From: a virus
Taxonomy: Duplodnaviria; Caudoviricetes
Reading direction: 5' to 3' (one strand)
Length of the DNA stretch: 37,218 nucleotides
IMG/VR virus record: IMGVR_UViG_3300025018_000300
Span: 1-37,218 of that record
The notes beneath the pieces are model-generated. The model saw only the letters and a list, made by a program, of their open reading frames with translations, was not told the origin of the DNA and did no database searches. Positions 4,242 through 33,275 of this stretch are shown piece after piece; positions within the stretch are counted from its first letter, which is position 1, and each line of letters begins with the position of its first letter. The position numbers and the translations under genes are program-made.

Positions 4242-4254
4242 GAAAGGAAAATCA

Positions 4255-4470: not shown

Positions 4471-4472
4471 CA

Positions 4473-4715
4473 ATGTATATTATACCAACTATTATACCAG
4501 CAATGACAAACAACTATATGTTGCTTAATGAAAATATAGCCTCAATCAACAAGCTCAATAACCTTATTGAGAGAATAGAAACGGAACTTGACTACAACAC
4601 CAGAGAAGATTTTGATGTGGTCACATTAGAGTATGAGGACGGTGAGCGAATATATTGCTTTATTACAACTTCGCCCGCTATTCACGCAGATATATGCGAC
4701 CTATTAGGAGTATAA
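4473..4715 (+). CDS. hypothetical protein
   Basis: 80-aa ORF, SD GAGGA, tightly packed in operon. Confidence 0.7.
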   Translation: MYIIPTIIPAMTNNYMLLNENIASINKLNNLIERIETELDYNTREDFDVVTLEYEDGERIYCFITTSPAIHADICDLLGV

Positions 4716-4716
4716 A

Positions 4717-5469: not shown

Positions 5470-5996
5470 CATATATAATATCAACCAACCCTCTATATAA
5501 ATCAAAAATGAAAAAAGTCGTCTTAGATGACACATATTCAGATAAAATATATAGAACCTGGCTAAAAAACATAATGAAAAAAGCAGGTTACACTATAGAA
5601 AAAAATGTGTATCTATACGAGGTCAACACCGAAAATCTGATACAACATATATTGATAGGAATAGCAACGTCGAATATATTATATCAATCAGAAGATATAT
5701 CAGAACTGAAAAATCTACTCGATAATACATATAAAATATATAATGCCTATATAATAGACAATATTATTCAGGAATACGAAGAGGATAAAAAATACCTAAA
5801 TGAAATGAAAAAAATGATGAAAAATATAAAAAATCTACCCAGACCATATAATGTTCAGATAAAATCACTATTAGATAGTGTCGAACATTATATTAGCTCA
5901 TTGAGCTCAAATCAAATCGAACGAGCTGCAATGATTAAAGCCAGGAAGTATCTGAATCGTCAGATAAATCCAATGAAAAATACAATATCAGAATAA
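5466..5996 (+). CDS. hypothetical protein (very AT-rich)
   Basis: 176-aa ORF with ATGA overlap. Confidence 0.7.
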   Translation: MTYIISTNPLYKSKMKKVVLDDTYSDKIYRTWLKNIMKKAGYTIEKNVYLYEVNTENLIQHILIGIATSNILYQSEDISELKNLLDNTYKIYNAYIIDNIIQEYEEDKKYLNEMKKMMKNIKNLPRPYNVQIKSLLDSVEHYISSLSSNQIERAAMIKARKYLNRQINPMKNTISE

Positions 5997-13400: not shown

Positions 13401-14937
13401 TCGCCTTAACTGCATCTTCCAGTTCTGTTACTTTTGCTGATAACTGTTGATATTGTTCGCCGTTTAAGCCCTTGTATAAGTTGGATAATAATCGTCTGTT
13501 TTCAGTAACCAGTTCTGGCACTAATCCACCGCCACGATATTCTATTTCATCCATAATACGCGCAATGCTGCTTTCAGGATCAACACGAAGCCCTATATCA
13601 CGGGCTTGGTCATTTATTAATCCCAAGTCACTACGTCGTGTTTCGTCAAATTCGCCGCCTTTTCGTTCTGTCAAATCGCGTAAACTACTGCCTGCTTGTT
13701 CTGGCATAACATTAGTTCTATTCGTTTCTGCTGCATTAGCAGTTTCAGCAGCCAATCTTTCCTGTTCACGAGTAGCCGCGCCCTGTACCACTCTACCAGC
13801 AGCCACTACTTCTTCTCTGGCTACGGGTGCTACATCAACTTTGTCTCTAACAGCGGTGCTCAAACCAAGTTCACGTGCGCCTTTTGCCTTACGCATTATA
13901 TCAGTCGTTTGTGCTAATCCGGCTTCTGCGTTTAATAATTCCGCACCAATCTTTTTAGCATTGTCATCTCCATATTGACTGAGCACCTGCCCAGCACTTA
14001 ACTTTCTTTCCGCTACAACAGCTTCACCACCCGCTCTATTGATTGCTTCGTCAATCTGTTTTGCCGTTAATCCGGGTATGCTCGTTCCGCTTTTAAATTG
14101 TTTAAGTATCTTTATCGCAACTGCACCTACAACTTCACCACCACCAGCCATAGCAGCTTCGTATATTATAGGTTTTAGATATTCGCCAGTCGTTTCGAAT
14201 GTTTGAACACCCAATGCTTTTGCTAATTCTTGTCTACCGGTTTGGGCAACACCCGCCCCGATGCCTGCGCCACCAGCAGCACCAGCCAAACCACCAACCG
14301 CACCTGCAATACCACCAGCCAAACCACCCGCGATTGGAAAAACTTCACCAGCTACGTCGGCTACGTCTCCCACTATGTCACCAAAGCCAATCAAGCTGTT
14401 GCCTTCTGGATCAATGAAGTTGTATTTTCCTGTTTCTGGGTTTTTGAATACTAACTGTTCAGCACCATTTCGTTTAACAACACCAAATTCAACGGGTTTG
14501 CCGTATTTTTCCTGTAATGTTTTTCCAAAATAACCTATTCTGGCATGTTCGTTGGTTGCTAAACTGCCTAATGCACGAGTGCCAGCACCAACACCCACAT
14601 TTTCAGCGCCAATACCTTTAAGTTGTTCATCCAAACTTCTTGTGTCTGTTTTAGGCATTTTAAATTTAACCATTTCGTTAGGATCATTTAAATCCTTGAA
14701 ATATGGGTTAGTTGAATCAAAGTATGTTTTTTCCTCGCCCTGCAACTCGCTATATCGCTTTTCAACAAAAGGTCCGCGAGTGTTTATTTCACCAATAATT
14801 GGTAAGCCTTGACGGTTTAGTTGTTCTGGTGCTTTAACAGCACGAATACGGTCTAATAAATTACCTGTTTCGGGCGCTGATGATTGTGCTTGTGTGGGTG
14901 CTTTAACAGCACGAATTCTGTCTAATAGATTATTCAT
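10477..14937 (-). CDS. large internal virion/DNA-ejection protein with inserted AAA+ module
   Basis: 1486 aa, last of three ejection-type genes, with a Gly/Ala hydrophobic stretch near the N-terminus. Contains GPRGSGKS, VLVLDEGD and IITTNN motifs. Confidence 0.75.
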   Translation of the reverse strand: MNNLLDRIRAVKAPTQAQSSAPETGNLLDRIRAVKAPEQLNRQGLPIIGEINTRGPFVEKRYSELQGEEKTYFDSTNPYFKDLNDPNEMVKFKMPKTDTRSLDEQLKGIGAENVGVGAGTRALGSLATNEHARIGYFGKTLQEKYGKPVEFGVVKRNGAEQLVFKNPETGKYNFIDPEGNSLIGFGDIVGDVADVAGEVFPIAGGLAGGIAGAVGGLAGAAGGAGIGAGVAQTGRQELAKALGVQTFETTGEYLKPIIYEAAMAGGGEVVGAVAIKILKQFKSGTSIPGLTAKQIDEAINRAGGEAVVAERKLSAGQVLSQYGDDNAKKIGAELLNAEAGLAQTTDIMRKAKGARELGLSTAVRDKVDVAPVAREEVVAAGRVVQGAATREQERLAAETANAAETNRTNVMPEQAGSSLRDLTERKGGEFDETRRSDLGLINDQARDIGLRVDPESSIARIMDEIEYRGGGLVPELVTENRRLLSNLYKGLNGEQYQQLSAKVTELEDAVKASDLSANQRLTKLNQQLSELATQRDEALTALRSNPNSVDAELASREAGVSQLENYGRKFETDADPIVRQAYNAGRTSGPVPATLDELVVDKSVRDVVEEIISGTVKSADLGDGSIESLANLGANTALPETIIFSGPRGSGKSSIGNVLQSSGRVMVETINSKAFTKELLERKLDQLTLTDTKRPVRVLVLDEGDVALTDLAKRNTINELLEKPQYQQVRVIITTNNPKGAAGKINRDERLVNVDLNNPLAKKAYGFGVAQKYKQPSAPDVLDKALDGVTSFREARKIPGRTSGLPRVRSREDGLNLGQFPEQITKEQFTKGISPSLFPNEQSYYQVLSFNQDAAESAALMMVKGGDDKSFNAVLDGLIKSNAVEHDLVGLSAANRRKLEDWFADTTFKRTDSDQQPIAVLRVSSVEDAAELDNLKTQLNNISDMEAPRKRIILVVGGDIESKISSAVMDRVELVKFTPNKQTFTPDPAKVDSITRDYTVTEASIGKNFDQAEAATRAEIARTTKTLGETQNSLIANINETAEGKTVDFSKFEQTLNQLKDKAYDRNLSPDFKSSLNMIADAMRQDIDDAWQAAIKTARDSGDTARADSIESWFNKSNEVQSFYRDGMNLLRRDYAERIIRPSPAKGTTDGVRSYELSDAEVFDVVTKPGASRQFDTIIKRESRLAETDELSTETATRIREATRQRWYDLVVKDGNVDLAAAKKFDKEYREALSTFFTPGELSMFSKPVELKRALDVETARLSSANTMLEEAFDARIANTKNPLAVFDTIWKSGFKGDISRLRSIAREYPELQLEDKFKRYVVSNLQDNIIKAGTLNDPAVKVDAEAIRSWIKTNKDMSDELFGQEYAKGLEELADWASAVNRTGKNQSQPIDSWLALVFAAYRGSFGVLTSQGRRMTAVKYAGNWFSERSMARSLSDPVSIAKYMKLKERLGGDRFKSVLGQAMARTGEEKVSNDLQDLIDVLGL

Positions 14938-17713: not shown

Positions 17714-19768
17714 TTATGGTCTTCCCATTCGGTTGAACGTGACAGCCATTCGCCCCAATATGTCAGGTCCCTTGTTATCTTGTGTGGTAATGCGCCATCT
17801 AAATGCCGTTCCTCGCGCTCGTAATGGTATCTTTGGATTGAATATTCTACTGCCACCTATCTTGCTGGTACCAATAGTGAAAAACCCAATAGGTGCGCCC
17901 TCTGGTAATGCGCTTACTATAACACTATCTAAACTGGTTTGATCCCAATCGCCTTCACAGGTTATTTCATAACTAATTTCATCGCCAGTTTCGAAATACG
18001 GTTCAATAAACTTGGTACTCTTCAAATTCTGTGTTCTACCAGAATCCAAATGATTCCATCCAGTTTGATAATCTGTTAGATAAATATCGCCATTGTCATC
18101 ATAAGTGCCAGTTTCAAAACGGCTAACAACACCATTACTGCCACCTGTCCACAAGTCACCATCCTGCATAACACAGAAAGTAAACTGGTTTGAAAAGCCT
18201 CCTTCAAACTTAAACCAACTGGGTATAATTTTATCTCTTGTTGAATTTCTCGCAAGAGTGATAGGAGCAAAGTTCCAGATATAAAGTTCACTGCCTATCT
18301 TCGCAATCAACCAATTACGGCGGCTGTATTGAATAAGTTGTAGTTCATCTTCTGGTGTAGCACGGATAATGTCTCTGAGTGTTTCGTTTATGCTTTCACT
18401 GATGGATTTTTGAACTATCGCTTGCGCATCTGTAGCACTCCAAAGTTGAATACCGCTATCAGCAATCCAAGCCACATCATTACCCAAGTTAATCAAACTA
18501 TTTTTACTACGAATACCCTGTGGTAGAACTGTTATTGGTGAAAAGTCTGCTCCATCACCAAATGGCTGACTGCCTTGAAAAGCGAACAAGTTCTTACTGC
18601 CACCCAACATTAAAAAGCTTTGAAAGCTAACAATGCTCTTTAGTGTTTCACCTTCTGAGTTCAAGCTACCTGCGTTATAAATATTACCTCTTACGGTACC
18701 ACCAAATTCCGTTAAGTCCAAACTTGCGCTGTCGGTAGTAAAATCTTGTGGATTATTGCTTCCTGATATTCTCAGCTTCTTTCTATCTCTGCTGTCGATC
18801 GCATATAATCTACCAAAATGAACAGCCGCGTTATAGATAAGTGGTGTTGCGAATTTAAGGAATGCCAAGCTGTCGCCATTTGTTTGACCACTCACTACCT
18901 GAGTAAATAATGTTGCGCCACTGATGTTGATAACATAACTTCCTGTTCCTCTGGTTGTGTTGTATATAATATCATTAACACGCAACCCTTTTGAATACCA
19001 ATCAGTTACGCCACTTACTTTTATCTCGTTGTTGGTTGCAGAAGTAGCAGTTGCGATATTATCTTTAAAAAGGCCACCGGGTGTGTCAAAGATATTAAGT
19101 TCAATAGTGTCATATATTTCGTAACGGGTTCCTGCTCTTGAGCCTGTTGTTCCACCAGCAAACCCAAAGTTTGTTCTGTCTAATCGTGTATGTGTGATTG
19201 TGGCTGCTGATATACTGGTTATTAATGCTGTTTGATTGGTTGATGGAAAAAACACTATGTCATTTTCACTAACATCAGTCTGCAAATTCCAACTGCTTAC
19301 TTCACTATCTATGAAAGTGTTGAATGTAGCACTTGCAACCGTTCCTACTTCAACAAGCGGCCTTAATATCTTGAAACTGCTACCGTTGTCAGTCCATACA
19401 TTCAAGTCCTCGCCGTTGAAGAATATAAGCTTTTCTTCCATCTGAATACTTTTAATGCGTTCTGTCTTGTTTGAAAACGCATATACTTCTGTCCAAGCAC
19501 TCACATCATAACGCCATATAGCGCCGGCGCCACTTGCGAATTTAATGCTGGTCCCCAACTCATTAACAAATTCGTGTAGTCCGGTTATGTTAGGTGCTGA
19601 ACTAACAACCACACCCACGCTTTCAATTCCTTCACGCTTTTCTGCGTCTCCGGAACCGTTTACGAAGCGGTTTGTAAATGCTGTAGCGTAGTCAGATGGT
19701 GTTTCTGCTTCACTAAAGCTGGTGCTTAGTCCTCTGGCTGCGATGGGCAATATTCTTGTTTCTGGCAT
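17714..19768 (-). CDS. tail nozzle / DNA-stabilisation protein (tubular B / P22 gp10-like)
   Basis: Beta-propeller-like composition (HFGRLY, RISGSNNPQDF) and position after the adaptor. Start moved to ATG 19768 (TAATG overlap). Confidence 0.75.
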   Translation of the reverse strand: MPETRILPIAARGLSTSFSEAETPSDYATAFTNRFVNGSGDAEKREGIESVGVVVSSAPNITGLHEFVNELGTSIKFASGAGAIWRYDVSAWTEVYAFSNKTERIKSIQMEEKLIFFNGEDLNVWTDNGSSFKILRPLVEVGTVASATFNTFIDSEVSSWNLQTDVSENDIVFFPSTNQTALITSISAATITHTRLDRTNFGFAGGTTGSRAGTRYEIYDTIELNIFDTPGGLFKDNIATATSATNNEIKVSGVTDWYSKGLRVNDIIYNTTRGTGSYVINISGATLFTQVVSGQTNGDSLAFLKFATPLIYNAAVHFGRLYAIDSRDRKKLRISGSNNPQDFTTDSASLDLTEFGGTVRGNIYNAGSLNSEGETLKSIVSFQSFLMLGGSKNLFAFQGSQPFGDGADFSPITVLPQGIRSKNSLINLGNDVAWIADSGIQLWSATDAQAIVQKSISESINETLRDIIRATPEDELQLIQYSRRNWLIAKIGSELYIWNFAPITLARNSTRDKIIPSWFKFEGGFSNQFTFCVMQDGDLWTGGSNGVVSRFETGTYDDNGDIYLTDYQTGWNHLDSGRTQNLKSTKFIEPYFETGDEISYEITCEGDWDQTSLDSVIVSALPEGAPIGFFTIGTSKIGGSRIFNPKIPLRARGTAFRWRITTQDNKGPDILGRMAVTFNRMGRP

Positions 19769-20475
19769 TATCCACGTCCTAACCAACCACCTGCGGGAAC
19801 AAATCTCACACTTGTTCCGCTGTCGTTTGTAAATCTATTATGTGCTTCTCGTTTGGCATTCATATATTCTTCCATAGCAGCACGAATTGGTGCGGATTGC
19901 TCACCGTCGTTTTGTTCAAGTAGTGCTTTGTAATACAACCCTCTAATCAATAAGTTTGCTGGAAAGTCAGGTAGATAATCACCATCGTCTGTGGTTAGAT
20001 TAGGTGTTTTGGCATAATAGAACATAATGAATATGTCTGAACTTGCTACACTTTGTGGCTTTGGGTATATTCTAATCTGTGGGTTATTTTGTGTATCAAC
20101 GCCCCATACACTCCAAAAGCTGGGCTTGCCTTGCGTATTGGTACGAAGCATTAAATAATTCATTTCCTGCTTTTTGACTTGCTTTAATGGTCCTCTGTAA
20201 TCATTATAAAATATCTGATGTACACGCTTTATGGGGTCTGGTGTTGAAAAGGTATAAAGGTCTTGTCCCACGACTGGTGTAGCGTCAACTCGTTCGTATC
20301 GTTCTTCCCAATCACCATAATCATCACAGTCTGTGATAACTTCGTTCAAGAGTTGTAATAATACTCTGCTGTATGAGTTTTGATCAATACTGTCAACGCT
20401 GGTAGTACCCATTTTGTTGAGCACTGAGTTTATAATGTCTTTGGCTGTACTTCGTGTATCAAGTGCGGAACTCAT
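19768..20475 (-). CDS. head-tail adaptor (tail tubular A-like)
   Basis: IINSVLNKMG...LLNEV, GKPSFW and IRIYPKP pattern; size and position fit. Confidence 0.75.
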   Translation of the reverse strand: MSSALDTRSTAKDIINSVLNKMGTTSVDSIDQNSYSRVLLQLLNEVITDCDDYGDWEERYERVDATPVVGQDLYTFSTPDPIKRVHQIFYNDYRGPLKQVKKQEMNYLMLRTNTQGKPSFWSVWGVDTQNNPQIRIYPKPQSVASSDIFIMFYYAKTPNLTTDDGDYLPDFPANLLIRGLYYKALLEQNDGEQSAPIRAAMEEYMNAKREAHNRFTNDSGTSVRFVPAGGWLGRG

Positions 20476-21179
20476 TATAATCTCCTAAATACAACATTGG
20501 TAATCTGATTGGTATATGTAAGAGTAGTAGTGTTTTGGCTGTCTAATACAACTTTTACTTCTCCACTTGTGGGCAATTCAACTAATATATTTGATTGATA
20601 AGCTGTTTGTGTGGCTGCGAGTGCGCTAACATATCCAGTTTCTATCTTTCTATCCACGCCATTGATGCTGAAATGTATTCGTGTACTTTCAGCGGATGAA
20701 AGTGTTCCAGTTGAAATAACAGTAGCCATAAACACTGCGCTGGTTCCCAAGTAAGTTATTGAGTTGCCACTGGTCTTAAAGCCAGTTGATAGGGCTGTTG
20801 TGAACACGCCACTTAATGCCGCTGACGTTGTGGCTGTTAAACTTATCGTTCCGCCTGTCATAATAAACTGTCCGTATGCGTGATTTGTAATCACTTGATC
20901 TGCATACACATTTTGAGCAGAAATCGTAGTTATATTCGCATTTGTAGCACTTAATGTTGTGATGTTGGCAGTGGTAGTATTCAAGTTTGTTGGTGTAAAA
21001 GTAGTAGTATTCAAACTGGTGAAAGTGCCTGTTGGCGCAGTGATCGCACCAGCTAATGATTGTGTAGCTGTATCTTGTAAGTTAAGTGCGCTGTCTATTA
21101 AATCTGCAAAATCTGTTCCAGAAGGCTTGTCGCCTTGTCCAAATTTGGTTTTTAATATTGCTCTGGTCGTACTTGTCAT
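20475..21179 (-). CDS. short tail fibre-like protein
   Basis: LKTKFGQGDKPSGTDFADLIDS N-terminal fibre motif, Thr/Asn-rich shaft, beta-rich C-terminal domain. Confidence 0.6.
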   Translation of the reverse strand: MTSTTRAILKTKFGQGDKPSGTDFADLIDSALNLQDTATQSLAGAITAPTGTFTSLNTTTFTPTNLNTTTANITTLSATNANITTISAQNVYADQVITNHAYGQFIMTGGTISLTATTSAALSGVFTTALSTGFKTSGNSITYLGTSAVFMATVISTGTLSSAESTRIHFSINGVDRKIETGYVSALAATQTAYQSNILVELPTSGEVKVVLDSQNTTTLTYTNQITNVVFRRL

Positions 21180-21457
21180 TATCTGTTCTCCACGGCTATG
21201 TAAATGGTTTTGTCATCTCTTCGCCCCGCAGTAGTCCAGATACGGCTTGTAATCGGGTATGTAGTATTTATAGTTCCGCCCCCTAACCAAAATGTATGGT
21301 CGGTTGATGTATAGCTTTCGCTTAAAATACTTATTCCTGATGTAGCGATTGCTTGTGCTGAAACGATTGTATCACCACCAAGAGCAGTTAAATATGTTGC
21401 CCAGTTCACGCGATAATCCAATATGGCGTCACTGTCCTTTCTAAATCTTGTTGTCAT
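21179..21457 (-). CDS. small Ig-like virion/fibre adaptor protein
   Basis: KDSDAILDYRVNW..YL...DTI...WLGGG...GRRD pattern typical of a small phage structural family. Confidence 0.6.
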   Translation of the reverse strand: MTTRFRKDSDAILDYRVNWATYLTALGGDTIVSAQAIATSGISILSESYTSTDHTFWLGGGTINTTYPITSRIWTTAGRRDDKTIYIAVENR

Positions 21458-21458
21458 A

Positions 21459-23084
21459 TTAATAATGCCTTATGTTATAATGAATATCCACGTCTGCTGT
21501 TGTGCTGGCTGCTGATGCGCAGTTATGCACCCAAAAATCAAATACGCAGGGACTTGGTGCAGCATTACCGGTCAAACCAGTTATGTTAACACTTCTTCCC
21601 GAAACATCAGCAATAAACCCACCATTTACTGTTATATCTCTAATTAAGCTGGTTGAGCTACCGATAATAGCATAAACGTCTCCACCGATAGAAGCGCCGT
21701 TTATCTGATTGAAATGCACATCTAATGAATCTCTGTATTCGTGGAAGAAAGCAACCATATGACTACTTGTATTGCGTATATGACCACCAGCAATATTAAC
21801 GTTCCTTACGCCGTCTAAATACATTCCGTAGAAACAGGAAGAAGCCCCGCTTAGTGTTGCGACGAATATATTGCCAACATTCAACCCGGTCACATTTTCA
21901 ACACGTAATCCATCTTCGTTTGGTCCGGGTGTACTTTGCCAAGCAGCATCAAAAACGCTAAGGGAATTAATTGTGATATTTTGGTGGGGAATAACATTAG
22001 CTTTGATCTTAAAGCCACATTGTCCAGTTCTGATTGTTTCAACTGAGTTGAAGTTTAGGTTTCTTGAGTTGAGTGCGGAGCCACCACCAATATATATACC
22101 GTGTTCGCCTTGATCGGCTATTCGCAATACATTGAAACTGCATTCTGCGCAGTCTTCAACCAATAAGCCATCCTCACCCGGGTTAGCGGAAGTAAGAATA
22201 CTTTTGCCGGTGGTTATTAGGGTTTCAATTGAACTGTTATTTACTTCTCTAAAAAAGATGGAATTTAGACATTTCTCTGTTTGAATATATCCAAGACGGA
22301 CTGCGCTCACTTGATAAGCGATAAGTGCTCTTGCAAAATTGCGTGCATAAATATCGTTGATACAAACATTACTACCTCGTATCTGTATAAAGCCGTCTAA
22401 GTTGCTGTCGCCTGTTAATGGGCGCTCAGCATTGGCAATTACACTTAATGAATTAATTGTGGTATTATCACTTATAATAAGACCTCTATCTAATGAAGAA
22501 ACCTGCGCAGACACTACAATTGATAAGCGATCAATATACAAGCCTGATACAAGTGCGATCGCCGCCGTAGATGTTCCAAAGTTAGTTGTTATTTTGAATG
22601 TTGTATTTGATACATATGGCGCAATTGCTGCGCTGATAGTATATACCGTTCCGCTAACTCGTACTGTTTCAGGAATTGAAATGTTTGGTGCGTATGCTAA
22701 ATTTGCCGATGTTTGAGTGATGAACGCACTTGCTGATATAACTGTTAAATATGCACTTAGCGCACTAACTCTGGCTATTGTGTTATCAACAAAGGTTACG
22801 CCGCCACTTGTTTCAATACCATTGCCAAATCCCACACCTGATATTATGGCTGTATTTATTAGACCAATAGCACTTGCTTCTGTGATAAATGTAGTTCTTG
22901 CACTGGATTTTGTTATTTTGTCGGTTGTATCATCAAGCCTGGCGAGTGGATAACCACCAATAGTTTGACCATCGTGTACAACGGCTGTTTTTCTGCTGGT
23001 ATCAATGGTAAGTTCTGCACTTGCCCCTACGAATAGAGAATGTGCTGATGTGCTTCCACTTCTAAATTTTACTGTTGTTGCCAT
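21459..23084 (-). CDS. tailspike 3: Mtd_N domain plus right-handed beta-helix
   Basis: VKFRSG....FVGASAELTIDT...VVHDG.TIGGYPL, followed by beta-helix repeats (EDGL, EHGIYI). Confidence 0.8.
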   Translation of the reverse strand: MATTVKFRSGSTSAHSLFVGASAELTIDTSRKTAVVHDGQTIGGYPLARLDDTTDKITKSSARTTFITEASAIGLINTAIISGVGFGNGIETSGGVTFVDNTIARVSALSAYLTVISASAFITQTSANLAYAPNISIPETVRVSGTVYTISAAIAPYVSNTTFKITTNFGTSTAAIALVSGLYIDRLSIVVSAQVSSLDRGLIISDNTTINSLSVIANAERPLTGDSNLDGFIQIRGSNVCINDIYARNFARALIAYQVSAVRLGYIQTEKCLNSIFFREVNNSSIETLITTGKSILTSANPGEDGLLVEDCAECSFNVLRIADQGEHGIYIGGGSALNSRNLNFNSVETIRTGQCGFKIKANVIPHQNITINSLSVFDAAWQSTPGPNEDGLRVENVTGLNVGNIFVATLSGASSCFYGMYLDGVRNVNIAGGHIRNTSSHMVAFFHEYRDSLDVHFNQINGASIGGDVYAIIGSSTSLIRDITVNGGFIADVSGRSVNITGLTGNAAPSPCVFDFWVHNCASAASTTADVDIHYNIRHY

Positions 23085-23092
23085 TGTTCTCC

Positions 23093-24733
23093 TTAAGCCG
23101 AATAATTATTTACGCCGCCAATTACAGCGACGGCACTTGTTGTTAAAATATTGTTTGCCGGAACTTCATATTGAGTGTCAGCAGAAATAACCATATTATT
23201 AGTTAAAAACACTCTTGTTGCGCCGCCACTTCCTTGTAGAACACGAATGCCTCTTTCGTCACTGCTGGCATTAGTTGGGGAACTAAAATCCACGCAATTG
23301 TTGCTAACAAATCCATAAATTGAATTTATGCCGGTAGTTGTTAAAAGAATACCGTGTGCTGTAGATGCCGGAATGGTACCATAGGCCAAACAAAAGTTAT
23401 CCGTAACAAATACTCGTTTCCAACCTTCAACGTGGATACCGGATATTCTAAAATTACAATGATTTTCCGTAATCATTAATTGATCGCTTTGGTTATCTGA
23501 ATTTTGCGCAAGTATACCATAGTTGACCGCAATAATATTATTACCTCTTAAATGTACACCTTGATAATCACTGGTTGTTAAGCCAACATTTGCGGGAAGA
23601 ATACGAATACCATAATTGTAATGGGAAATATTGCAGTCCGTAATATGCATATGAACTGGTGCGGCACTACCAACAGCAGCCAATTCAATACCTATTCCGG
23701 TGTAGTTGCCCCAATAGCCAAATACGTCGCAATTGCTGATTGTTCCATTTCTCACATTCGATAAACGTATTCCTATATTAAAGTAATGTGCTGTTGAGAT
23801 TGGTTTTACAGCTATATTGTCAAATCTTATTGCGGGTTCTGAACTGCCAATGCCGGGTTGACCGCTAATTTTAATACCAGTGCCCGCTGCGTATGCGCCA
23901 TTACTTACAACTGCAAAGTCTCTGAAAACAACATCTTGATTAAATTGACCAATTGGCGCAGATGCATCTGAAAGTTTTATGTCTAATCCAACATCAGAAT
24001 GCGTAATATAAAATCCGCTCTGTTGTTTTCCGCCGCCATACACCGCTAAACTGCGTCTTGCTGAGTTTAGGGTTATAGCGATTGGGCTGGTTGTTCTATA
24101 AAAGCTATTTAAGAAAACTATCTTGCCACTATCAAAGGCCGCTTGAACAGCAGCAGTGTCATCTGTAATTATGTCGCCGACGGCGCCATAAAATTCTGGT
24201 GTAATAAAATTATTACCAATACTATTTGGCGTATAAGCCAAATCTGCTGATGTTTGGGTGATGTATGCCGCTAATGTGCTTACTCTGGCTATTGAGTTAT
24301 TAACCGTTGTTCTACCTGAAACGAATGTTATACCATCCCCGGCATTTACCGCCACTTGACCTGATACAACGGTTAAGCCATCCCCGGCATTTACCGCCAC
24401 TTGACCTGAAACGAATGTTATGCCGTCACCGGCATTTACCGCCACTTGACCTGAAACGAATGTTATGCCGTCACCAGCGTTAATGCCTGCGAAAGCAGCT
24501 TCATCTATTAGGCTTTGAGTAGAGGCTGGTGTTATATAGATAGAAGCAGCACTTTCTTTTGAAAGCAGTATATCAATATCTTCTTCTAATGCGAGAGGAT
24601 AACCACCAACGGTAATACCATCGTGTACTCTGACAGTCTTTTTGCCAAGATCAACGGTTAGTTCGCCTTCTGTCCCTTTGAATGATTGGTTTTGTGCTGT
24701 TGTTCCTCTGCGGAATTTAACTTGTGTTGTCAT
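23093..24733 (-). CDS. tailspike 2: Mtd_N, beta-spiral repeats and pectate-lyase-like beta-helix
   Basis: QVKFRRG...GEL..D....RVHDG; YGAVGD..TDDTAAVQAA. Confidence 0.85.
   Translation of the reverse strand: MTTQVKFRRGTTAQNQSFKGTEGELTVDLGKKTVRVHDGITVGGYPLALEEDIDILLSKESAASIYITPASTQSLIDEAAFAGINAGDGITFVSGQVAVNAGDGITFVSGQVAVNAGDGLTVVSGQVAVNAGDGITFVSGRTTVNNSIARVSTLAAYITQTSADLAYTPNSIGNNFITPEFYGAVGDIITDDTAAVQAAFDSGKIVFLNSFYRTTSPIAITLNSARRSLAVYGGGKQQSGFYITHSDVGLDIKLSDASAPIGQFNQDVVFRDFAVVSNGAYAAGTGIKISGQPGIGSSEPAIRFDNIAVKPISTAHYFNIGIRLSNVRNGTISNCDVFGYWGNYTGIGIELAAVGSAAPVHMHITDCNISHYNYGIRILPANVGLTTSDYQGVHLRGNNIIAVNYGILAQNSDNQSDQLMITENHCNFRISGIHVEGWKRVFVTDNFCLAYGTIPASTAHGILLTTTGINSIYGFVSNNCVDFSSPTNASSDERGIRVLQGSGGATRVFLTNNMVISADTQYEVPANNILTTSAVAVIGGVNNYSA
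24314..24481. repeat. four tandem 45-bp repeats (NAGDGITFVSGQVAV)
   Basis: Visible in both DNA and protein of tailspike 2. Confidence 0.9.
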
Positions 24734-24742: not shown

Positions 24743-26233
24743 TTAAGAAATATTGTTCGCCGCTATCTTGTTGGGTCCAGATCCACCATCGCTAAAGGCG
24801 GCAATTAAAAATCCACGCAGGTCGTTGCCTGTTAATATATAATTGTTGGAGTCTCCATTATTTATAAGTAGGTTATAGCCTTGTGTAGCAGGGAAGCCAT
24901 TACCGCTTCCAATTCTACAGCCTTGAATACTCATCCCGCTTACCCCTGGTGCAAACTCAACTCCGTGGTAAATACCAAATGATTCCCGACTATTTCCGGT
25001 TATTTCACCATCGTGGAATCTAAAGTTTGTACCCTTAAGTACGCTAACGCCTGCTCGACCATTATTAAATGAGCGATGTTGGCTAAAACGTAATCCATCA
25101 ACAGAACCAGCAGAGTAGTTTACATATATACCTTCTAAGTCAAAGCTGGATGTCCAGCATTGGGTGAAGGAACAGCCTTTGACAGTACCCCCGAGCGGCT
25201 CAACGACTAATCCTCTACCTAACCCACTATCCCAAGCGCAGTTTGTAACGAATAACCATTCAATACTGTTTCCACTGACCGGTTGCAAGGCCATTCCATT
25301 GGTTCCAAGCAAGCAACCAACGTTGTCAACCCAAGTAGCGCCAGTATTTCGTATTAGGAAGCCCACACCGTACTTGTCTAAAGGTGTGCCAGCGATTATA
25401 CCATCTCTAAAATATTGATCGTTACCACCAGATACGATGATACCCATTCCACTGGTTGCGGTTGGAGTTTGAGCTTCGAAGTCTTTAATAGTACCAAGTG
25501 TGCATTGTTTAAAGTGCATCGCAGTATGTGGGCGATCAAAGCTAATGTTGTGTACTAAGAACTTAAATTGGTTTTGGCAGTATAGACTAACACCAGCAGT
25601 TCGTGCGCTTATTGAACTAATTGTCAGGTTGGATATTTGGTTATTGACATATGTTTTTGCCCCATCACCAAGTTCAATTACATTACCAGAATTATAACTG
25701 GTTATAATTTTACTTACGCCACGAGACTCGCCAGTTAGATTAAGGTTGTTGCCTTTATAGGTAAGCTTTTTCGAAATAAAATAGTTGCCATTTGGGATGA
25801 ACAATTGCCCGCCATTGCGAGCACTAACGAATGATAAAGCGGCTTGAATTGCGTCGCTATCATCAGTTGAGTTATCACCTAATGCGCCAAAGTCTTTAAC
25901 ACTAATTATTTCACCTAATTTTTGTGACAGAGATTGGCTCGTTATGCCTCCACTTAAAGTGACTGAATAGGAGCCTAATGCACTTACTCTGGCTATGGTA
26001 TTATCTATAACAATCTGTCCAGAAGTGCTAGTAAGACCATCACCAAAGCTTGCACCACTTACAATGCTTGATGTAACAAAGTCTCTGGTTGCGAGTGCAA
26101 ATCCACCCATTTGTGCAGAATTGTGAACGCGAATAGTATTTAGAGTAGTGTCATAAGTAACTTCACCGATAGCGCCGGTAAATACGGAATGTGCCGAAGC
26201 AGTACCACGCCTAAACTGAATTTGTGTTGCCAT
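24743..26233 (-). CDS. tailspike 1: Mtd_N plus pectate-lyase-like beta-helix
   Basis: QIQFRRG...FTGAIGEVTYD; ISVKDFGALGD..TDDSDAIQAA. Confidence 0.85.
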   Translation of the reverse strand: MATQIQFRRGTASAHSVFTGAIGEVTYDTTLNTIRVHNSAQMGGFALATRDFVTSSIVSGASFGDGLTSTSGQIVIDNTIARVSALGSYSVTLSGGITSQSLSQKLGEIISVKDFGALGDNSTDDSDAIQAALSFVSARNGGQLFIPNGNYFISKKLTYKGNNLNLTGESRGVSKIITSYNSGNVIELGDGAKTYVNNQISNLTISSISARTAGVSLYCQNQFKFLVHNISFDRPHTAMHFKQCTLGTIKDFEAQTPTATSGMGIIVSGGNDQYFRDGIIAGTPLDKYGVGFLIRNTGATWVDNVGCLLGTNGMALQPVSGNSIEWLFVTNCAWDSGLGRGLVVEPLGGTVKGCSFTQCWTSSFDLEGIYVNYSAGSVDGLRFSQHRSFNNGRAGVSVLKGTNFRFHDGEITGNSRESFGIYHGVEFAPGVSGMSIQGCRIGSGNGFPATQGYNLLINNGDSNNYILTGNDLRGFLIAAFSDGGSGPNKIAANNIS

Positions 26234-26802
26234 TATAATGCTCCGTAATCAAATGCTTCATCTACTGTATTATTTATCGTTTCGGTATATATTATGTATT
26301 GAGTGGCGCTTTCAATGCTGCCATAATCGTTGGGGAAGGCAGAAAGAGTAGCACTTACCAAGCCATAATCTTCTGTTTGATCACTTGTATTTAATATGCT
26401 CTGATAATAATATTGTGTGTCTGATGTTTCAGTTATACTGCCATAATCATATCCATTTATAAAAACCGTTAAATCACCAAAGTCATAATAGTAATTTACA
26501 TAATCAGTTAAGTTTAAGAAATCAAAATATAAAATTGGCAATAAAGCGGTATATCCCCAATCTTCTGGCGGAAAGCCATATTCAAATACCTGTGGGTTGT
26601 TTATTAGTTCTGGATGGCTATCTGTTCGCATATAATCAACTACACCATCATATAAATCAAGTGGGTGTTGACCGTCCTCTGTGCCACGCTTTACAACTTG
26701 TCCGTAATAGTCAACAACCGCATCACTCGCGTAGATGGTAAATCCAGTTCTATCGTCTATGACTAAGTTATCTCCTATTCTAATTCTGTTTCGTATTGCC
26801 AT
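26233..26802 (-). CDS. acidic adaptor protein with nine ~13-aa D-[YWF]-G-type repeats
   Basis: N-terminal DDRTGF...HP domain, with repeats running to the C-terminus. TAATG overlap with tailspike 1. Confidence 0.75.
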   Translation of the reverse strand: MAIRNRIRIGDNLVIDDRTGFTIYASDAVVDYYGQVVKRGTEDGQHPLDLYDGVVDYMRTDSHPELINNPQVFEYGFPPEDWGYTALLPILYFDFLNLTDYVNYYYDFGDLTVFINGYDYGSITETSDTQYYYQSILNTSDQTEDYGLVSATLSAFPNDYGSIESATQYIIYTETINNTVDEAFDYGAL

Positions 26803-26861
26803 TATTTCTTACATTTTCCTGTGCAACCACTCTTACTGCATTTTGAACATTTCTTCTTCAT
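26802..26861 (-). CDS. 19-aa Lys/Cys micropeptide MKKKCSKCSKSGCTGKCKK (not in ORF track)
   Basis: Strong SD TAAGGAG, fills the intergenic gap, TAATG overlap with the adaptor gene. Confidence 0.65.
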   Translation of the reverse strand: MKKKCSKCSKSGCTGKCKK

Positions 26862-26870
26862 ATCGTCTCC

Positions 26871-28091
26871 TTATTCTGTGTAAAATATTCTTATGTATAT
26901 TGCGTCCACGTTTGCTATTCTATTAGTTGTACTTGTGTTACCAACTGCGCGAAAATCCAATCCAAAATTATCAGCATTAATTTCAGCAGGTGTCCAAGTG
27001 GTACCCCATAGATCATTGCGTCTTCCGTAAGTGATTGTTCTGTTACCAAAAGCCCAATTTGCCCCCGTAACCGCTTTATTGTCACCAACTGCTGCCCCCC
27101 CTTTGACTAATCGTACAACGTTATCTCTTGCTTGTCCTGTAGTTCCGCCTGATCGATTTCTGACAACAAAAACTTGAATTCCAAATATGGTTGCACTTAC
27201 CGGGATTGAAAAACCAAAATTGCGGGTTTGAAGTGTTTGCTGTGGTATGTTCTTGAACAATGTTTGTGATGATTTAATATTGTTTAAAGTGAACACGTTT
27301 GATGGAGTTGACCACGCATTACCAGTGCCGCTCGAAAGCGCACTTGTGGGTGATGCTGAAATCGCTAATATATCTTTTGCAGTGCCATCGCCTGCATAAA
27401 CAACTATACCAGCGTTGCAGTATGCGGTATTTACTGTCACTGCGTCATAACCAATAGTATATGGGCTTATAGCGGTTGCTAACTCGGATATTGCGATATT
27501 GCTATAGCCGCTTAAGAGGCTTATCGTATTTGTTGATTTAGCAGATATTCCAGTAACATTAGCAAAATAAAAACCTAATATTGCGGCTTGATCGCGTAAA
27601 ACAGAAAGTGTTGTTTCAATTGCAGGATTATCACCCAGTGAACTTACAGACCATTCGGCAGTTGTGATCGCTTGAAGGCTGCTAACATTCACATTGGCTA
27701 TTTCTAAGAATTGTGTATCGTTAATGAAATTGTTCGCCCCGGATTCTAAGAATTGAACTCTCTTTACGTCGCCATCATTGTTGTGATACCAGTATAATCC
27801 AAATGTATCAAAGTTGGTTGTTTGTCTGTAGGCTATTCTATTTATTGCTACGCCACTTATTTGTAACGGGCGCGCAGACACCGCTAATGAAGCATCATTA
27901 TAATGTTCGTGTGCAATGAAAATAACGCTGTCAGTACTGTTTGGTGTCCAGTCGAATGTTTTTGACAAACCGGGAGTATAATTGCGCCAATAGAAGTGTC
28001 CCTTAAAGTCCGGCCCTGAGTATGTTGCACTTGCGGGAGCAGCACTACCGGCATAATATTTCTGAGGATCATATACAGATATAACAAACAT
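26871..28091 (-). CDS. beta-rich virion protein, probable fibre-tip/adhesin
   Basis: Two beta-sandwich-like halves (FGFSIP..ATI.GI.V, TYG...DLWG.TWTPA). Coupled to the upstream fibre gene. Confidence 0.6.
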   Translation of the reverse strand: MFVISVYDPQKYYAGSAAPASATYSGPDFKGHFYWRNYTPGLSKTFDWTPNSTDSVIFIAHEHYNDASLAVSARPLQISGVAINRIAYRQTTNFDTFGLYWYHNNDGDVKRVQFLESGANNFINDTQFLEIANVNVSSLQAITTAEWSVSSLGDNPAIETTLSVLRDQAAILGFYFANVTGISAKSTNTISLLSGYSNIAISELATAISPYTIGYDAVTVNTAYCNAGIVVYAGDGTAKDILAISASPTSALSSGTGNAWSTPSNVFTLNNIKSSQTLFKNIPQQTLQTRNFGFSIPVSATIFGIQVFVVRNRSGGTTGQARDNVVRLVKGGAAVGDNKAVTGANWAFGNRTITYGRRNDLWGTTWTPAEINADNFGLDFRAVGNTSTTNRIANVDAIYIRIFYTE

Positions 28092-29368
28092 TATTTGTTT
28101 CTCCTGCCGTGTAGTGAGAAACTGGTGTTTATCATATCCGTACCAGCACTAACGACTAACGCGATACGATCACCAAATACTGCACTCAAGTTTGCTGTTG
28201 CAGAAGTGATAACTTGTATTGTGGTTATTGCGATATTTAATAAGCCAGTTATTGCAGTACCATTCTTTGTGACCGAATAGCTGCCACTGCCACTTGAACA
28301 ACGGGCAACCATTCGTATAAATTGTGTTTCCTCCGGTATATATTCATCAAGCACGATAATGGTTTGTGTTTGTGCGCTGGAGGGAATTGCTGCTGAATAA
28401 CTTAATAAATAAGTGCCTCTTTGAACGTAAGTAGCGGAAGCATATGCAGAAGTTACAAAAGCGCCACTTGTCCAAGCACTTGTGGCATAGGCAACGGGTG
28501 CGCGTGCTGAGACTATGATTGATTGGCTGGATGTTCTAACATCTATATTCACACCAGTTATATTGTTTATTCGCAGAAATGTTGAGTTGGCATACGCACT
28601 TGTTACGAAGCTGGCACTCGCCCAAGCACTTGTGGCATAAGCAGTTAGTTGGCCTGCGCTAACATAGCCGGGTGTATTGATGAACTGCGATAAGCTGCTC
28701 AAACTTCCTATTTGAACATATCTTGCATCACTATAAGCGGAAGTGACATATTGGCTTTGAGTAGCAGAAGTAAGGTAGTTTCCTCTTAACTGGTATGTTG
28801 CACTTGCGTAAGCACTCGTTGCATACGCTGGTGCGCTGGTAAGGTAGCCTGCATCATTGGTGAACTGGCTGACCGCACTCAAGCTGCCGATAGCCACATA
28901 CGCTGCATCCGCGCTGGACTGAGATAGAAGGCCGCTCGTGCTGGGGATGGGTGTCCCTGCGCTTAGAAACGCACTTTCAGCCCAAGCCGAGGTCGCAAAT
29001 TGTGACTGAGTAGCAGAAGTTAAATAATTGCCGATGATTTGATATTTCGCATCTGCACTACTTTCAGTTATCAATCCCGTTATGCTGGGTATGGGGGTTG
29101 CTGCTGATAGGAATACTGTTCCAGCACTCAAAAAGTTATTTGTAACCCAAGCACTTGTGGCATATTCACTTTGGGTCGCACTTGTAAGGAAATTGCTTAA
29201 ATCAGAAGTTTTGGCTAATGGTGTTCCACCTACAGTAACGCCATCGTTGGTATGTATGGTTTTGGTTGTTAGGTTGTATATTATTTCGCCCGCCGCGCCA
29301 GTAAATGTGGATATAGCAGAAGCTGTCCCGCGTCTTATTCTAACTTGAACACTTAATGCACTACTCAT
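28091..29368 (-). CDS. Mtd_N fibre protein with YATSAW / YLTSATQS repeats
   Basis: QVRIRRG...FTGAAGEI...HTNDG.TVGG. Start moved to ATG 29368 (ATGA overlap). Confidence 0.8.
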   Translation of the reverse strand: MSSALSVQVRIRRGTASAISTFTGAAGEIIYNLTTKTIHTNDGVTVGGTPLAKTSDLSNFLTSATQSEYATSAWVTNNFLSAGTVFLSAATPIPSITGLITESSADAKYQIIGNYLTSATQSQFATSAWAESAFLSAGTPIPSTSGLLSQSSADAAYVAIGSLSAVSQFTNDAGYLTSAPAYATSAYASATYQLRGNYLTSATQSQYVTSAYSDARYVQIGSLSSLSQFINTPGYVSAGQLTAYATSAWASASFVTSAYANSTFLRINNITGVNIDVRTSSQSIIVSARAPVAYATSAWTSGAFVTSAYASATYVQRGTYLLSYSAAIPSSAQTQTIIVLDEYIPEETQFIRMVARCSSGSGSYSVTKNGTAITGLLNIAITTIQVITSATANLSAVFGDRIALVVSAGTDMINTSFSLHGRRNK

Positions 29369-29631
29369 ATTACACCCCAATCAATTGCAAAAGGAGTTTC
29401 GTTAGTGGCACCCCAGTTGTATTTATAGATAAATGGGCTTTCAGTTAAACCCCAGTCCGATATTGAGAAAAGCGTATCACCTGTAGCTTTATGGTAGGGT
29501 TCTACTGTTTCTGAAAAGTTTCTTTTATCAACCATATAAGTGCGATTGCGTATATCAACAGAAGCTTCTCGTTGTCCTGCAACGGCATCAGAAACTGTAT
29601 TGGGTGCGGGTACGATTATGGTATTGCTCAT
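29365..29631 (-). CDS. small adaptor protein with three [DN]WG repeats
   Basis: C-terminus SDWGLTESPFIYKYNWGATNETPFAIDWGVI. Start reassigned to ATG 29631, 4 nt after an AATAAATA box. Confidence 0.7.
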   Translation of the reverse strand: MSNTIIVPAPNTVSDAVAGQREASVDIRNRTYMVDKRNFSETVEPYHKATGDTLFSISDWGLTESPFIYKYNWGATNETPFAIDWGVI

Positions 29632-31722: not shown

Positions 31723-32726
31723 TAGCTCATCCTTCCAATCTTTTGAAGCTGTAGTGCGTATCTCTTAATCGCTGCGTCCTTATCCAAGTCAGGAAATAGC
31801 ATTGTTGCTACTCTTGCCTGATCCTGTGTTAAACGAACACGATTAGAGTTTCCGCCGGTTGTACGGTCTCCCGTCATAACCTCACTTGGCTCCTGTCTTT
31901 TATTTATATTATCTCGTTGTGGTTCGTCATTCTTAATCGCTTTTGGTGTTATTGCGAATGTTTTACCCAAGCGATGCAGTTCTTCGTCTATCTTTTGTGC
32001 AATTGCTCTTAATTCAACGCCGGGGTTTTGTGCCCAATATTCTGCGCCACTTTTTAGAGCGGCTGCTTTTATGTTGTCATTTACGGCATATGGATGGTTA
32101 TCAAAAAACTCCATAACCTTTTCCTGTTGTGCTGGACTCAGCATTTGAACAAACTTAGCTTCAACAGGTGTGTCTGCGTCCAATATTCTCTGAGTGGCTT
32201 TGCTTATGGGTTCTACTTCCAGTTCTTTGGATTCCAGTTTAAGCTGTTCTCTGAGTTTAACATTAGCAGCTTCGTAATCGCCTTTTCTCTGTGCGTCAGT
32301 TATTTCACGCTGTAGAGTGGTAAGTTGTGATTGACGTTCTTTTTCAGCTTTTTCGCGTTCAATAGCTTCTAATTTTTCCGCAAGTGCTTTATTTTGTGCT
32401 GTCAGTTCTTTTAGGTTGTTATCGCTGGCTTTGAGTTGTCCATATACTCTGTTGAAACGTGCTTGAACCTCGGGTTCAAATTCCACGTAATCATAGCCGG
32501 GCTTTTCAGTTTTCTTTTGTTCTGGCTTTTCTGTGTTTTCTTGTGGTTTGGCTTTTGCTTCAAACCATTCTTTGCTTCCAGTGTCAGGGGCTTCTGTGGG
32601 TTCTTGGCGCTCTGCGGGCTTGAAACTGCTTTCTGGTTTTTCTGTTGACTCTGTGGATTGATTAGCTTCGGTCGTTCCAAACTCTATATCAATCGTGCCA
32701 TCTTTGTTTATTTCTAAATCACTCAT
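31722..32726 (-). CDS. capsid scaffolding protein
   Basis: Acidic N-terminus, coiled coil, VQARFNRV, C-terminal VRLTQDQ...YA. Confidence 0.75.
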   Translation of the reverse strand: MSDLEINKDGTIDIEFGTTEANQSTESTEKPESSFKPAERQEPTEAPDTGSKEWFEAKAKPQENTEKPEQKKTEKPGYDYVEFEPEVQARFNRVYGQLKASDNNLKELTAQNKALAEKLEAIEREKAEKERQSQLTTLQREITDAQRKGDYEAANVKLREQLKLESKELEVEPISKATQRILDADTPVEAKFVQMLSPAQQEKVMEFFDNHPYAVNDNIKAAALKSGAEYWAQNPGVELRAIAQKIDEELHRLGKTFAITPKAIKNDEPQRDNINKRQEPSEVMTGDRTTGGNSNRVRLTQDQARVATMLFPDLDKDAAIKRYALQLQKIGRMS

Positions 32727-33037
32727 TATTTAACTCTCACCAATAAATCTTCATCTTGTACAATATAATATTCGTGGCCTTCGCGTTCTATCCAGGCCCC
32801 CGAAAAATTTCCGAACATAACTGTTTCGCCAAGTTCCACATTTTGTGCTGTGGGACCAATACCAACTACCAAGCCTTCATTTCTGGCGTTTCTACGGGCG
32901 ATTTCTTCGGGTATTATTAACCCGCCTTTGCTCTTCATATCTTCTCGTTGCAATACAACTCTCGCAAATTTCGGTGTAAAAGGGCAATCACTATATAAGG
33001 TTGCGCCATCTACGGTTATTGTTTCTCGTTCATTCAT
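32726..33037 (-). CDS. groES: GroES-like co-chaperonin
   Basis: P.FARVVL, KSKGGLIIPE, GLVVGIGP and Y.IVQDEDLL. Start moved to ATG 33037 behind GGAG. Confidence 0.85.
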   Translation of the reverse strand: MNERETITVDGATLYSDCPFTPKFARVVLQREDMKSKGGLIIPEEIARRNARNEGLVVGIGPTAQNVELGETVMFGNFSGAWIEREGHEYYIVQDEDLLVRVK

Positions 33038-33275
33038 TTTTTTCTCCATCAATTAATTTCTTTCCGTCATAATAATCATTCCAATAGTCCATACTGGTTA
33101 GAATGTATGTGGTGTTGGGACCAAATACACGGGTTATTAATTCAGGATTACGGGAAAAAAAGTTTATGACTTCCAAAACAATGCGGGGGTCATCTGCCGC
33201 AAGTTCTGTAATGCGATTATGTAGAAACTTATTAAGTCTACACAGTTCCGCCCTGTTGGGTGCTGTTTTGCTCAT
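33030..33275 (-). CDS. hypothetical protein
   Basis: Fills the gap between the 523-aa gene and groES; start uncertain. Confidence 0.5.
   Translation of the reverse strand: MSKTAPNRAELCRLNKFLHNRITELAADDPRIVLEVINFFSRNPELITRVFGPNTTYILTSMDYWNDYYDGKKLIDGEKNE

What the first reader, a model, noticed from the sequence alone, without database searches (positions are those of the whole stretch)
26233..29631. Triplet D-[YWF]-G peptide sockets whose count matches the Mtd_N trimers: a plug-and-socket RBP docking code
Seen: the 189-aa protein ends in nine units spaced 13,13,12,13,13,14,13,13 residues apart. They group as three triplets (DWG/DFL/DFG; DYG/YYQ/DYG; DYG/YTE/DYG), each with a degenerate middle unit and exactly 26 residues from first to third, and the last ends at the C-terminus (FDYGAL). 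This gene is translationally coupled to a run of three Mtd_N tailspikes. The small protein after the capsid gene ends in a single triplet (DWG/NWG/DWG, spacing 13,12, ending IDWGVI) and is coupled to one Mtd_N fibre gene. Established: Mtd and tailspikes are homotrimers. Inference: each triplet wraps one Mtd_N trimer (one motif per protomer), solving the 1:3 symmetry mismatch. A linear peptide would thus set how many RBPs are displayed and where (a tail-anchored versus a possibly capsid-anchored adaptor). This differs from the gp10-like branching domains of known multi-spike phages and could be engineerable.
Basis: partly seen in the sequence, partly recalled or inferred. Interest (0 to 1): 0.85.

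Follow-up and report, generated by a model that had tools for sequence, protein, structure and literature searches.

The report
Peptide rope docking trimeric phage tailspikes
Two proteins of this phage end in repeated short Asp-aromatic-Gly tags that are predicted to wrap, three at a time, around the trimeric cap of its receptor-binding spikes, and the same tag precedes such caps in many unrelated phages, which likely explains how the well-known Bordetella phage Mtd protein is fastened to its tail fibre.

Summary
Observation confirmed: nine ~13-residue units in the 189-aa protein (six strict D[YWF]G; 0 of 100,000 shuffles; 40-residue module period), three in the 88-aa protein, and four Mtd_N genes, two of them overlapping the tagged genes. 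Binding is well supported but not shown. A model of three Mtd_N caps plus the 88-aa triplet scores 0.85 against 0.16 for the best control, one motif per protomer on an invariant Arg. In viral contigs picked by the motif alone, the next gene starts with Mtd_N in 55 of 66. The counting rule does not generalise: 33 of 36 socket clusters have one Mtd_N gene nearby whatever their motif number, doublets are commonest, and S-CAM1 has about five blocks for one gene. Tags likely set the number of trimers, not genes. Cognate specificity and capsid anchoring are untested. Neck anchoring of the 189-aa protein is supported by gene context. It works like the GP4/A1002 rope proteins but carries a different cargo. 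BPP-1 Bbp9 has two such tags, conserved in 19 of 19 relatives. This scan noted the same plug-and-socket idea before on other DNA, with DGG tags.

The parts
26233..26802 (-). 189-aa rope-like adaptor: N-terminal virion-anchor domain plus nine D[YWF]G-type units in three ~39-residue modules
26608..26802 (-). N-terminal ~65-aa domain of an unnamed phage family; 80-145-aa relatives lie at or near the neck adaptor gene in ct2G2228, QDWS535 and HTVC023P
   Evidence: pLDDT about 90 over residues 11-40
26470..26562 (-). module 1 (residues 81-111): DWG / DFL / DFG
   Evidence: P0002 has DFL / DLG / DFG here
26356..26448 (-). module 2 (residues 119-149): DYG / YYQ / DYG
   Evidence: kept in P0002
26236..26328 (-). 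module 3 (residues 159-189): DYG / YTE / DYG, likely a duplicate of module 2 (offset 40; 47 of 93 bases identical)
29365..29631 (-). 88-aa adaptor after the capsid gene, ending in one triplet DWG / NWG / DWG (29368-29457)
28091..29368 (-). 425-aa fibre with Mtd_N cap; start overlaps the stop of the 88-aa gene (ATGA)
26871..28091 (-). 406-aa protein after the fibre gene, no family hit; possibly the fibre tip (inference from position)
24743..26233 (-). 496-aa tailspike 1: Mtd_N cap + pectate-lyase-like beta-helix; start overlaps the stop of the 189-aa gene (TAATG)
23093..24733 (-). 546-aa probable tailspike 2 with Mtd_N cap; its body occurs with another anchor in L088
21459..23084 (-). 541-aa probable tailspike 3 with Mtd_N cap
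21179..21457 (-). GP4 gp77-like collar (fibre-tail adaptor)
   Evidence: PF23148 E 1.6e-19; 8jou_D E 0.00096
19768..20475 (-). SU10-type neck adaptor (context)
   Evidence: PF24175
29726..30646 (-). major capsid protein (context)

Best explanation
The repeated [hydrophobic]-D-[Y/F/W]-G-x-[I/L/V] units are likely docking tags for the trimeric Mtd_N cap: three successive units are predicted to wrap one cap, one unit per protomer, so the 189-aa protein would act as a neck-anchored rope carrying up to three tailspike trimers and the 88-aa protein would carry one fibre trimer. Shown: the units, their triplet period, the four caps, the gene overlaps, and the tag-then-cap gene order in many unrelated phages. 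Predicted: the interface, with the aromatic-Gly of each unit against the first cap strand and its invariant Arg. Inferred: neck anchoring (from gene context), free repeats unstructured until bound, and stoichiometry. The tag number likely sets how many cap trimers load, whether they come from one gene or several; the 3+1 match to gene number here is a feature of this genome, not a rule. Tags can likely also be supplied in trans, one per chain, by a trimeric fibre. Which spike takes which module is open.
For: Complex model: 3 x Mtd_N of the 425-aa fibre + last 40 aa of the 88-aa protein, ipSAE 0.85 (0.86/0.83/0.85) against best control 0.16. The mark was reached by 116 of 157 solved and 2 of 215 mismatched pairs; those counts hold only roughly here. 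Runs share at least 92% of contacts and partner pLDDT is at least 87. All three copies use residues 3-14, 18-19, 22, 25 and 30; W12, W25 and W37 each touch R12 of a different copy; R12, G14 and F22 are invariant in 51 of 51 caps. No solved cap-peptide complex was found by sequence or fold, so recall of a known complex is unlikely. Motif-first scan: next gene starts with Mtd_N in 55 of 66 evaluable loci, 29 of 35 clusters. Cap-first: 17 of 36 upstream C-terminal clusters carry D[YFW]G in the last 60 aa against 18 of 809 other genes, odds ratio 39, p 2e-16. The two main exception classes belong to one ~85-kb phage group, and contig G002 holds both socket and cap about 12.7 kb apart. Related N-terminal-domain genes without tags sit in regions without Mtd_N (3 of 3). 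Repeats get pLDDT below 50 alone. Tag classes sort by cap class: DYG before Mtd_N 11 of 46 and before the other cap class 0 of 39; DGG-type 3 of 46 and 11 of 39; p 1e-4.
Against: No experiment; one complex modelled, and it was the 88-aa triplet, not the 189-aa modules with their weak middle units (YTE172 scores poorly). The cap was given as three copies by design. Doublets are the commonest array (25 of 36 clusters; inflated because the motif scan asked for a doublet), so three tags in one chain are not required. 19 of 36 upstream clusters lack a strict tag, and no doublet was found by profile in HTVC008M, LR756508 or three partial contigs of the 134-aa class. Residues 145 and 159 form a textbook 14-spaced doublet that cuts across the triplet grouping. 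Low pLDDT may only reflect an alignment with two rows over the repeats.
Confidence: 0.75

Rival explanations
1. Strict address code: each triplet selects one cognate Mtd_N protein, so triplet number equals Mtd_N gene number and fixes the order of spikes.
For: Exact 3+1 match and gene coupling in this window. Module 1 and the 88-aa triplet use W/F where modules 2-3 use Y. A1002 loads two different dimers at fixed rope positions. Tag class does sort by cap class.
Against: 33 of 36 clusters have one Mtd_N gene within 6 kb for 1 to 8 motifs (two window rows left out). S-CAM1 has one Mtd_N gene and about five divergent blocks on one protein. K437 and Phosso have two genes and one detected triplet each. 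Cap residues at modelled contact positions show no evident pairing with the tag aromatic.
Confidence: 0.15
2. The binding unit is a pair of tags (or a single tag) rather than a triplet: only the six strict motifs bind, the middle units are spacers, and the number of trimers per rope is two or three depending on register.
For: Doublets dominate among relatives; 145/159 and 107/119 are 14 and 12 apart; DFL94 and YTE172 score weakly.
Against: The repeat period is 38-40 residues; P0002 ends after unit six; the modelled triplet fills all three sites; triplets with one degenerate unit recur in S-CAM1 and Phosso. This rival still keeps the docking function.
Confidence: 0.2
3. The repeats fold by themselves (for example a calcium-binding or beta-roll repeat) or bind something other than Mtd_N, and the gene order is inherited synteny.
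For: The repeats are acidic and aromatic; no binding has been measured.
Against: No Pfam or PHROG family; no predicted fold. The tag sits on unrelated carriers (T7-fibre, P22 head-binding, T4-like large proteins) yet is still followed by Mtd_N. Controls in the complex job score 0.16 or less.
Confidence: 0.07

Closest known systems
Bordetella phage BPP-1 Mtd on the tail fibre Bbp9 (PF18454; PDB 1YU0-1YU4, 2IOU)
   Same: Same cap family and fold. Mtd is a trimer at fibre ends, two per fibre (PMC2408619, passages); its beta-prism 'presumably' attaches it (PMC10743442, passages). Bbp9 lies just upstream of mtd and has DFG201, DYG425 and a terminal DLG.
   Different: The papers seen name no binding site on the fibre. 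Here the tags sit in tandem on small stand-alone adaptors, and there are four cap genes and no retroelement cassette among the annotated ORFs.
Rope proteins of chain-like fibres: Ralstonia phage GP4 (five gp80 dimers), Pseudomonas phage A1002 gp39 (11 dimers of two proteins), Bas63 collar rope
   Same: An extended chain sets the number and place of bound oligomers, by beta-sheet augmentation in A1002 (PMC13730344 abstract, passages, sections 8 and 11; PMC12609058 passages). This phage also has a gp77-like collar.
   Different: The cargo there is small gp80-type dimers; here it is Mtd_N-capped trimers with large spike bodies and a short recurring motif. No GP4 protein of 8 tested matched the adaptor's N-terminal profile.
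Branched RBP systems with T4 gp10-like domains and N-terminal conserved peptides (G7C, K1-5/SP6, KP32, CBA120/Menlow)
   Same: Several spikes are joined to one anchor through short peptides (PMC6872550, passages).
   Different: Polarity is reversed: there the peptide is at the spike's N-terminus and the adaptor has the folded domain; here the folded trimer is on the spike and the peptides are on the adaptor.
DGG-tag / Mtd_N-HylP cap pairing noted earlier in this scan (e1-5982740, e1-5567347, e1-5530632; AI notes, unchecked)
   Same: Tag-then-cap gene order read as plug and socket.
   Different: A different tag class. In my loci DGG-type tags mostly precede another cap class and D[YFW]G precedes the Mtd_N class.

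Membership tests
Mtd_N (PF18454) cap proteins | Pfam score above the curated cut-off at the N-terminus | tested here: met
   4 of 4 ORFs, 27.7-38.4 bits against 26.3; four matches in the genome
Mtd_N (PF18454) cap proteins | fold of the Mtd N-terminal domain | tested here: met
   model pLDDT 88; Foldseek 1yu1 E 1.7e-4, rmsd 0.8; 1yu0_A Z 7.5, rmsd 1.2, 50 aligned; tested for the 425-aa protein only
Mtd_N (PF18454) cap proteins | homotrimer | tested here: inconclusive
   modelled as three copies by design, pLDDT 92; Mtd itself is a trimer
GP4/A1002 rope-type chain fibre | extended scaffold chain binding several oligomers in tandem | tested here: inconclusive
   no fold predicted for residues 81-189; one triplet modelled around one trimer; multi-trimer loading not modelled
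GP4/A1002 rope-type chain fibre | cargo is a gp80-type dimer | tested here: not met
   the coupled genes encode Mtd_N-capped proteins of 425-546 aa
GP4/A1002 rope-type chain fibre | gp77-like collar on the neck | tested here: met
   PF23148 and 8jou_D; whether either adaptor binds it was not tested
GP4/A1002 rope-type chain fibre | sequence kinship to a GP4 rope protein | tested here: inconclusive
   no hit of the N-terminal profile or of the 88-aa protein among 8 GP4 proteins; which gene encodes the GP4 rope was not established here
T4 gp10-like branched RBP systems | folded gp10-like docking domain on the anchor | tested here: not met
   no family hit for either adaptor; the only confidently modelled part is a ~40-residue domain of another family
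calcium-binding or other self-folding repeats | repeat family hit or confident repeat fold | tested here: inconclusive
   no Pfam hit, pLDDT below 50, but only two alignment rows cover the repeats

The most novel reading that the evidence does not exclude
Tailed phages of many lineages share a family of short C-terminal tags, each read by its own class of trimeric cap (D[YFW]G by Mtd_N, DGGx[FY] by a sister cap). Tags supplied in cis or in trans count out trimers in threes, small converter proteins swap one tag for another, and in this phage each triplet addresses a particular spike. Bbp9's conserved tags are the missing attachment site of BPP-1 Mtd.
Probability: 0.3. Interest if true: 0.88.

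Novelty: new variant of a known kind. Interest (0 to 1): 0.72.

Why it matters
It names a specific, testable binding site for a cap domain whose attachment has only been presumed in the papers seen, including for the model tropism-switching phage BPP-1. It gives a function to many 'hypothetical' proteins ending in DYG repeats (about 340 stretches in IMG/VR hold one narrow form of the doublet; about 3,400 hold the cap). It also suggests a small peptide-trimer pair for displaying several spikes on one scaffold.

Tried and rejected
Word-index search found no relative of the 189-aa protein; the full HMMER search gave 20 hits, of which P0003, P0013 and P0014 are low-complexity false matches. P0002's locus was not found in viral contigs, so its cap-gene count is unknown. 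Scans with alignments A1/A2 in genome contigs, A3 and A6 could not be run (too little conserved stretch), so no prophage survey was made. No PDB chain matches the repeats or the N-terminal family. The 88-aa protein has no informative relative (atlas hits at 0.85 or less), so capsid anchoring could not be tested. Fold search of the 189-aa model was not run. No covariation between tag aromatic and two cap contact positions was evident. Profile searches for doublets were empty in G006-G008, HTVC008M, LR756508 and G009; degenerate tags would be missed. Paper searches that found no description of the motif; one search matched only mtDNA and is uninformative. The library lacks most subscription papers: the GP4 structure paper (J Mol Biol 2023), the Mtd crystal paper and the BPP-1 cryo-EM paper were not read, and no supplements were opened.
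Full report
Setting. The window is a 37,218-base virus record, about 78% complete, of a podophage with an SU10-type portal and adaptor, a Mu gpT-like capsid, GroES and a GP4 gp77-like collar. On the minus strand the order is capsid, 88-aa protein, 425-aa Mtd_N fibre, 406-aa protein, 189-aa protein, three Mtd_N proteins of 496, 546 and 541 aa, collar, a 234-aa protein and the neck adaptor. All four caps pass the Pfam cut-off.

The 189-aa protein has units at 81, 94, 107, 119, 132, 145, 159, 172 and 185; six are strict D[YWF]G, which 0 of 100,000 shuffles reach. Autocorrelation peaks at offsets 40, 13, 38 and 26, and modules 2 and 3 look like a duplication. The single close relative P0002 keeps units 1-6 and stops after the sixth, though its contig is only 2.6 kb. 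The 88-aa protein has DWG/NWG/DWG at 59, 72, 84. Both tagged genes overlap the next cap gene. The middle units are uneven: YYQ132 fits the family profile outside the D and G columns, DFL94 and YTE172 do not (the profile came from 142 units upstream of Mtd_N genes in fetched loci, window excluded).

The motif travels with Mtd_N. In six cultured phages first checked, the gene upstream of the cap gene carried the motif near its end: single in S-TIP37 and CRP-3, double in a Syntrophomonadaceae phage, triple in Vibrio K437, and looser forms in AH02 and BPP-1. Cap-first test: in 179 loci chosen for Mtd_N (the best 80 of about 500-570 confirmed per scan), 17 of 36 clusters of upstream C-termini have D[YFW]G in the last 60 residues, against 18 of 809 clusters of other genes (odds ratio 39, p 2e-16). 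Motif-first test: a DNA pattern for a 13-spaced doublet gave 120 viral loci, 118 of them new loci (a few on contigs already seen in the cap scans). I dropped 14 that my protein pattern missed and 38 with under 300 bases downstream or an open end. In 55 of the remaining 66 the next gene starts with Mtd_N, 29 of 35 after clustering. For scale, about 3,400 stored stretches of 2.9 million contigs hold the cap pattern. The main exceptions explain each other: sockets with no cap gene beside them and a 134-aa cap class with no socket beside it share many genes at roughly 40-80% identity, and one contig (G002) holds both about 12.7 kb apart. Some cases stay unexplained: 19 of 36 upstream clusters have no strict tag, many showing a longer degenerate form, and profile searches were empty in several records.

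Structure. Alone, the 189-aa protein is modelled with confidence only over residues 11-40; residues 81-189 are below pLDDT 50 (Atlas pTM 0.23), with the caveat of a shallow alignment. Three copies of the 425-aa protein's cap with the last 40 residues of the 88-aa protein scored ipSAE 0.85 against a best control of 0.16. The mark was reached by 116 of 157 solved and 2 of 215 mismatched pairs, counts that hold only roughly for this job; runs agree in at least 92% of contacts and partner pLDDT is at least 87. Each copy uses the same residues, and Trp12, Trp25 and Trp37 of the peptide each touch Arg12 of a different copy. Arg12, Gly14 and Phe22 are invariant in 51 caps. It is a prediction, made for one of the four triplets. 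The cap model matches Mtd first, then weakly streptococcal phage hyaluronidase and collagen trimerisation domains; no solved cap-peptide complex turned up.

The count. In this genome three modules precede three cap genes and one precedes one. Across 36 other clusters with a whole socket gene and at least 4 kb downstream, 33 have one cap gene within 6 kb whether the array has 1, 2, 3, 4 or 8 motifs, and 3 have two genes (two doublets, one triplet) (two window rows left out; the automatic count misses degenerate units and the motif scan favours doublets). Whole genomes agree: S-CAM1 has one cap gene and a 2130-aa protein with about five DLV/DYG/DWG-type blocks; K437 and Phosso have two cap genes and one detected triplet. 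So tags likely count trimers, not genes, and one cap accepts divergent tags, which argues against a strict address for each spike. A1002 does load two proteins at fixed rope positions, so an address is not excluded. Singlets sit at the C-terminus of S-TIP37's T7-type fibre (PF03906; trimeric by established knowledge) and of CRP-3's fibre, which would give three tags in trans. Doublets on trimeric carriers would give six tags and possibly two trimers. Both points are inference. There is a code at a coarser level: D[YFW]G ends 11 of 46 genes before Mtd_N and 0 of 39 before a second cap class, while DGG-type tags end 3 of 46 and 11 of 39 (p 1e-4). Small proteins that join one class of cap to the other class of tag occur often.

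Anchoring. The first 65 residues of the 189-aa protein belong to an unnamed family with variable C-terminal payloads. Its members in ct2G2228, QDWS535 and HTVC023P are 80-145 aa, lie directly before, a few genes before, or directly after a neck-adaptor-like gene, have no tags, and have no Mtd_N in the 18-20 kb fetched. That supports a neck position, by inference. Capsid anchoring of the 88-aa protein rests on gene position alone.

BPP-1. Mtd is a trimer at the fibre ends, two per fibre (PMC2408619, passages), attached 'presumably' through its beta-prism (PMC10743442, passages). Bbp9, just upstream of mtd, has DFG201, DYG425 and a terminal DLG; in the 19 closest of 24 relatives D425-Y426-G427 and D503, G505 are invariant. 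These are candidate attachment sites; three candidates do not simply give two trimers.

What is known. Rope proteins that carry a fixed number of dimers are described for GP4, A1002 and Bas63 (PMC13730344: abstract, passages, sections 8 and 11; PMC12609058: passages). Peptide-mediated branching through gp10-like domains is described with the opposite polarity (PMC6872550, passages). The outline of 10.64898/2026.06.25.734500 was seen and not used. My searches found no paper naming this motif or a binding site for Mtd_N, but the library lacks most subscription papers and I read no supplements. Three earlier notes of this scan propose the same plug-and-socket idea for DGG tags on other genomes; they are unchecked and were not used as support.

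Verdict. A real and widespread tag, likely the docking site of Mtd_N trimers, here arranged as a three-module rope and a one-module adaptor. It works like a rope protein but is not a member of the GP4/A1002 type by cargo. Docking with one tag per protomer: 0.75. Strict gene-level counting code: 0.15. New variant of a known kind; interest 0.72.

Noticed in passing
L088:1-9708 against window 20076-24235: L088 is 99.95% identical to the window from its base 5549 on, but bases 1-5548 belong to another phage; the body of tailspike 2 is joined in frame to a different, non-Mtd anchor. This is either a recent swap of a spike body between two phages or an assembly chimera through a shared segment.
   Followed up: partly
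L015:3159-3362, L021:1100-1306, L037:6217-6471, L052:9777-10001: Tiny converter proteins: 67-84-aa Mtd_N-only proteins ending in a DGG-type tag, and 74-aa proteins with the second cap class ending in a DYG doublet.
   Followed up: partly
L011:8473-9220, L075:8815-10742 and related loci: A third recurring junction: genes ending in an AIAVALG-like tail are followed within one or two genes by a 113-aa protein starting MANTFK; possibly another tag-and-socket pair.
   Followed up: no
L316:2572-9459 (Synechococcus phage S-CAM1): A 2130-aa protein with repeated tag blocks precedes a single 152-aa Mtd_N protein annotated 'putative hoc', suggesting a long rope studded with one small trimer.
   Followed up: partly
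L001:4599-6125 (BPP-1 bbp9): Candidate Mtd-binding tags at residues 201, 425 and 503; the last two are conserved in 19 of 19 close relatives.
   Followed up: partly
window 26608-26802: An unnamed small virion-gene family (no Pfam, PHROG or PDB match) found near the neck adaptor gene in GroES-encoding podophages; it could be a neck accessory such as the unassigned 'bonding protein' of A1002 (speculation).
   Followed up: partly
window 10477-14937: The 1486-aa probable ejection protein has an internal AAA-family hit at residues 642-751 (PF00004, E 9.3e-7), unusual for such a protein.
   Followed up: no
window 4717-5469 and 32726-33052: An FkbM-type methyltransferase and a GroES co-chaperonin.
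   Followed up: no
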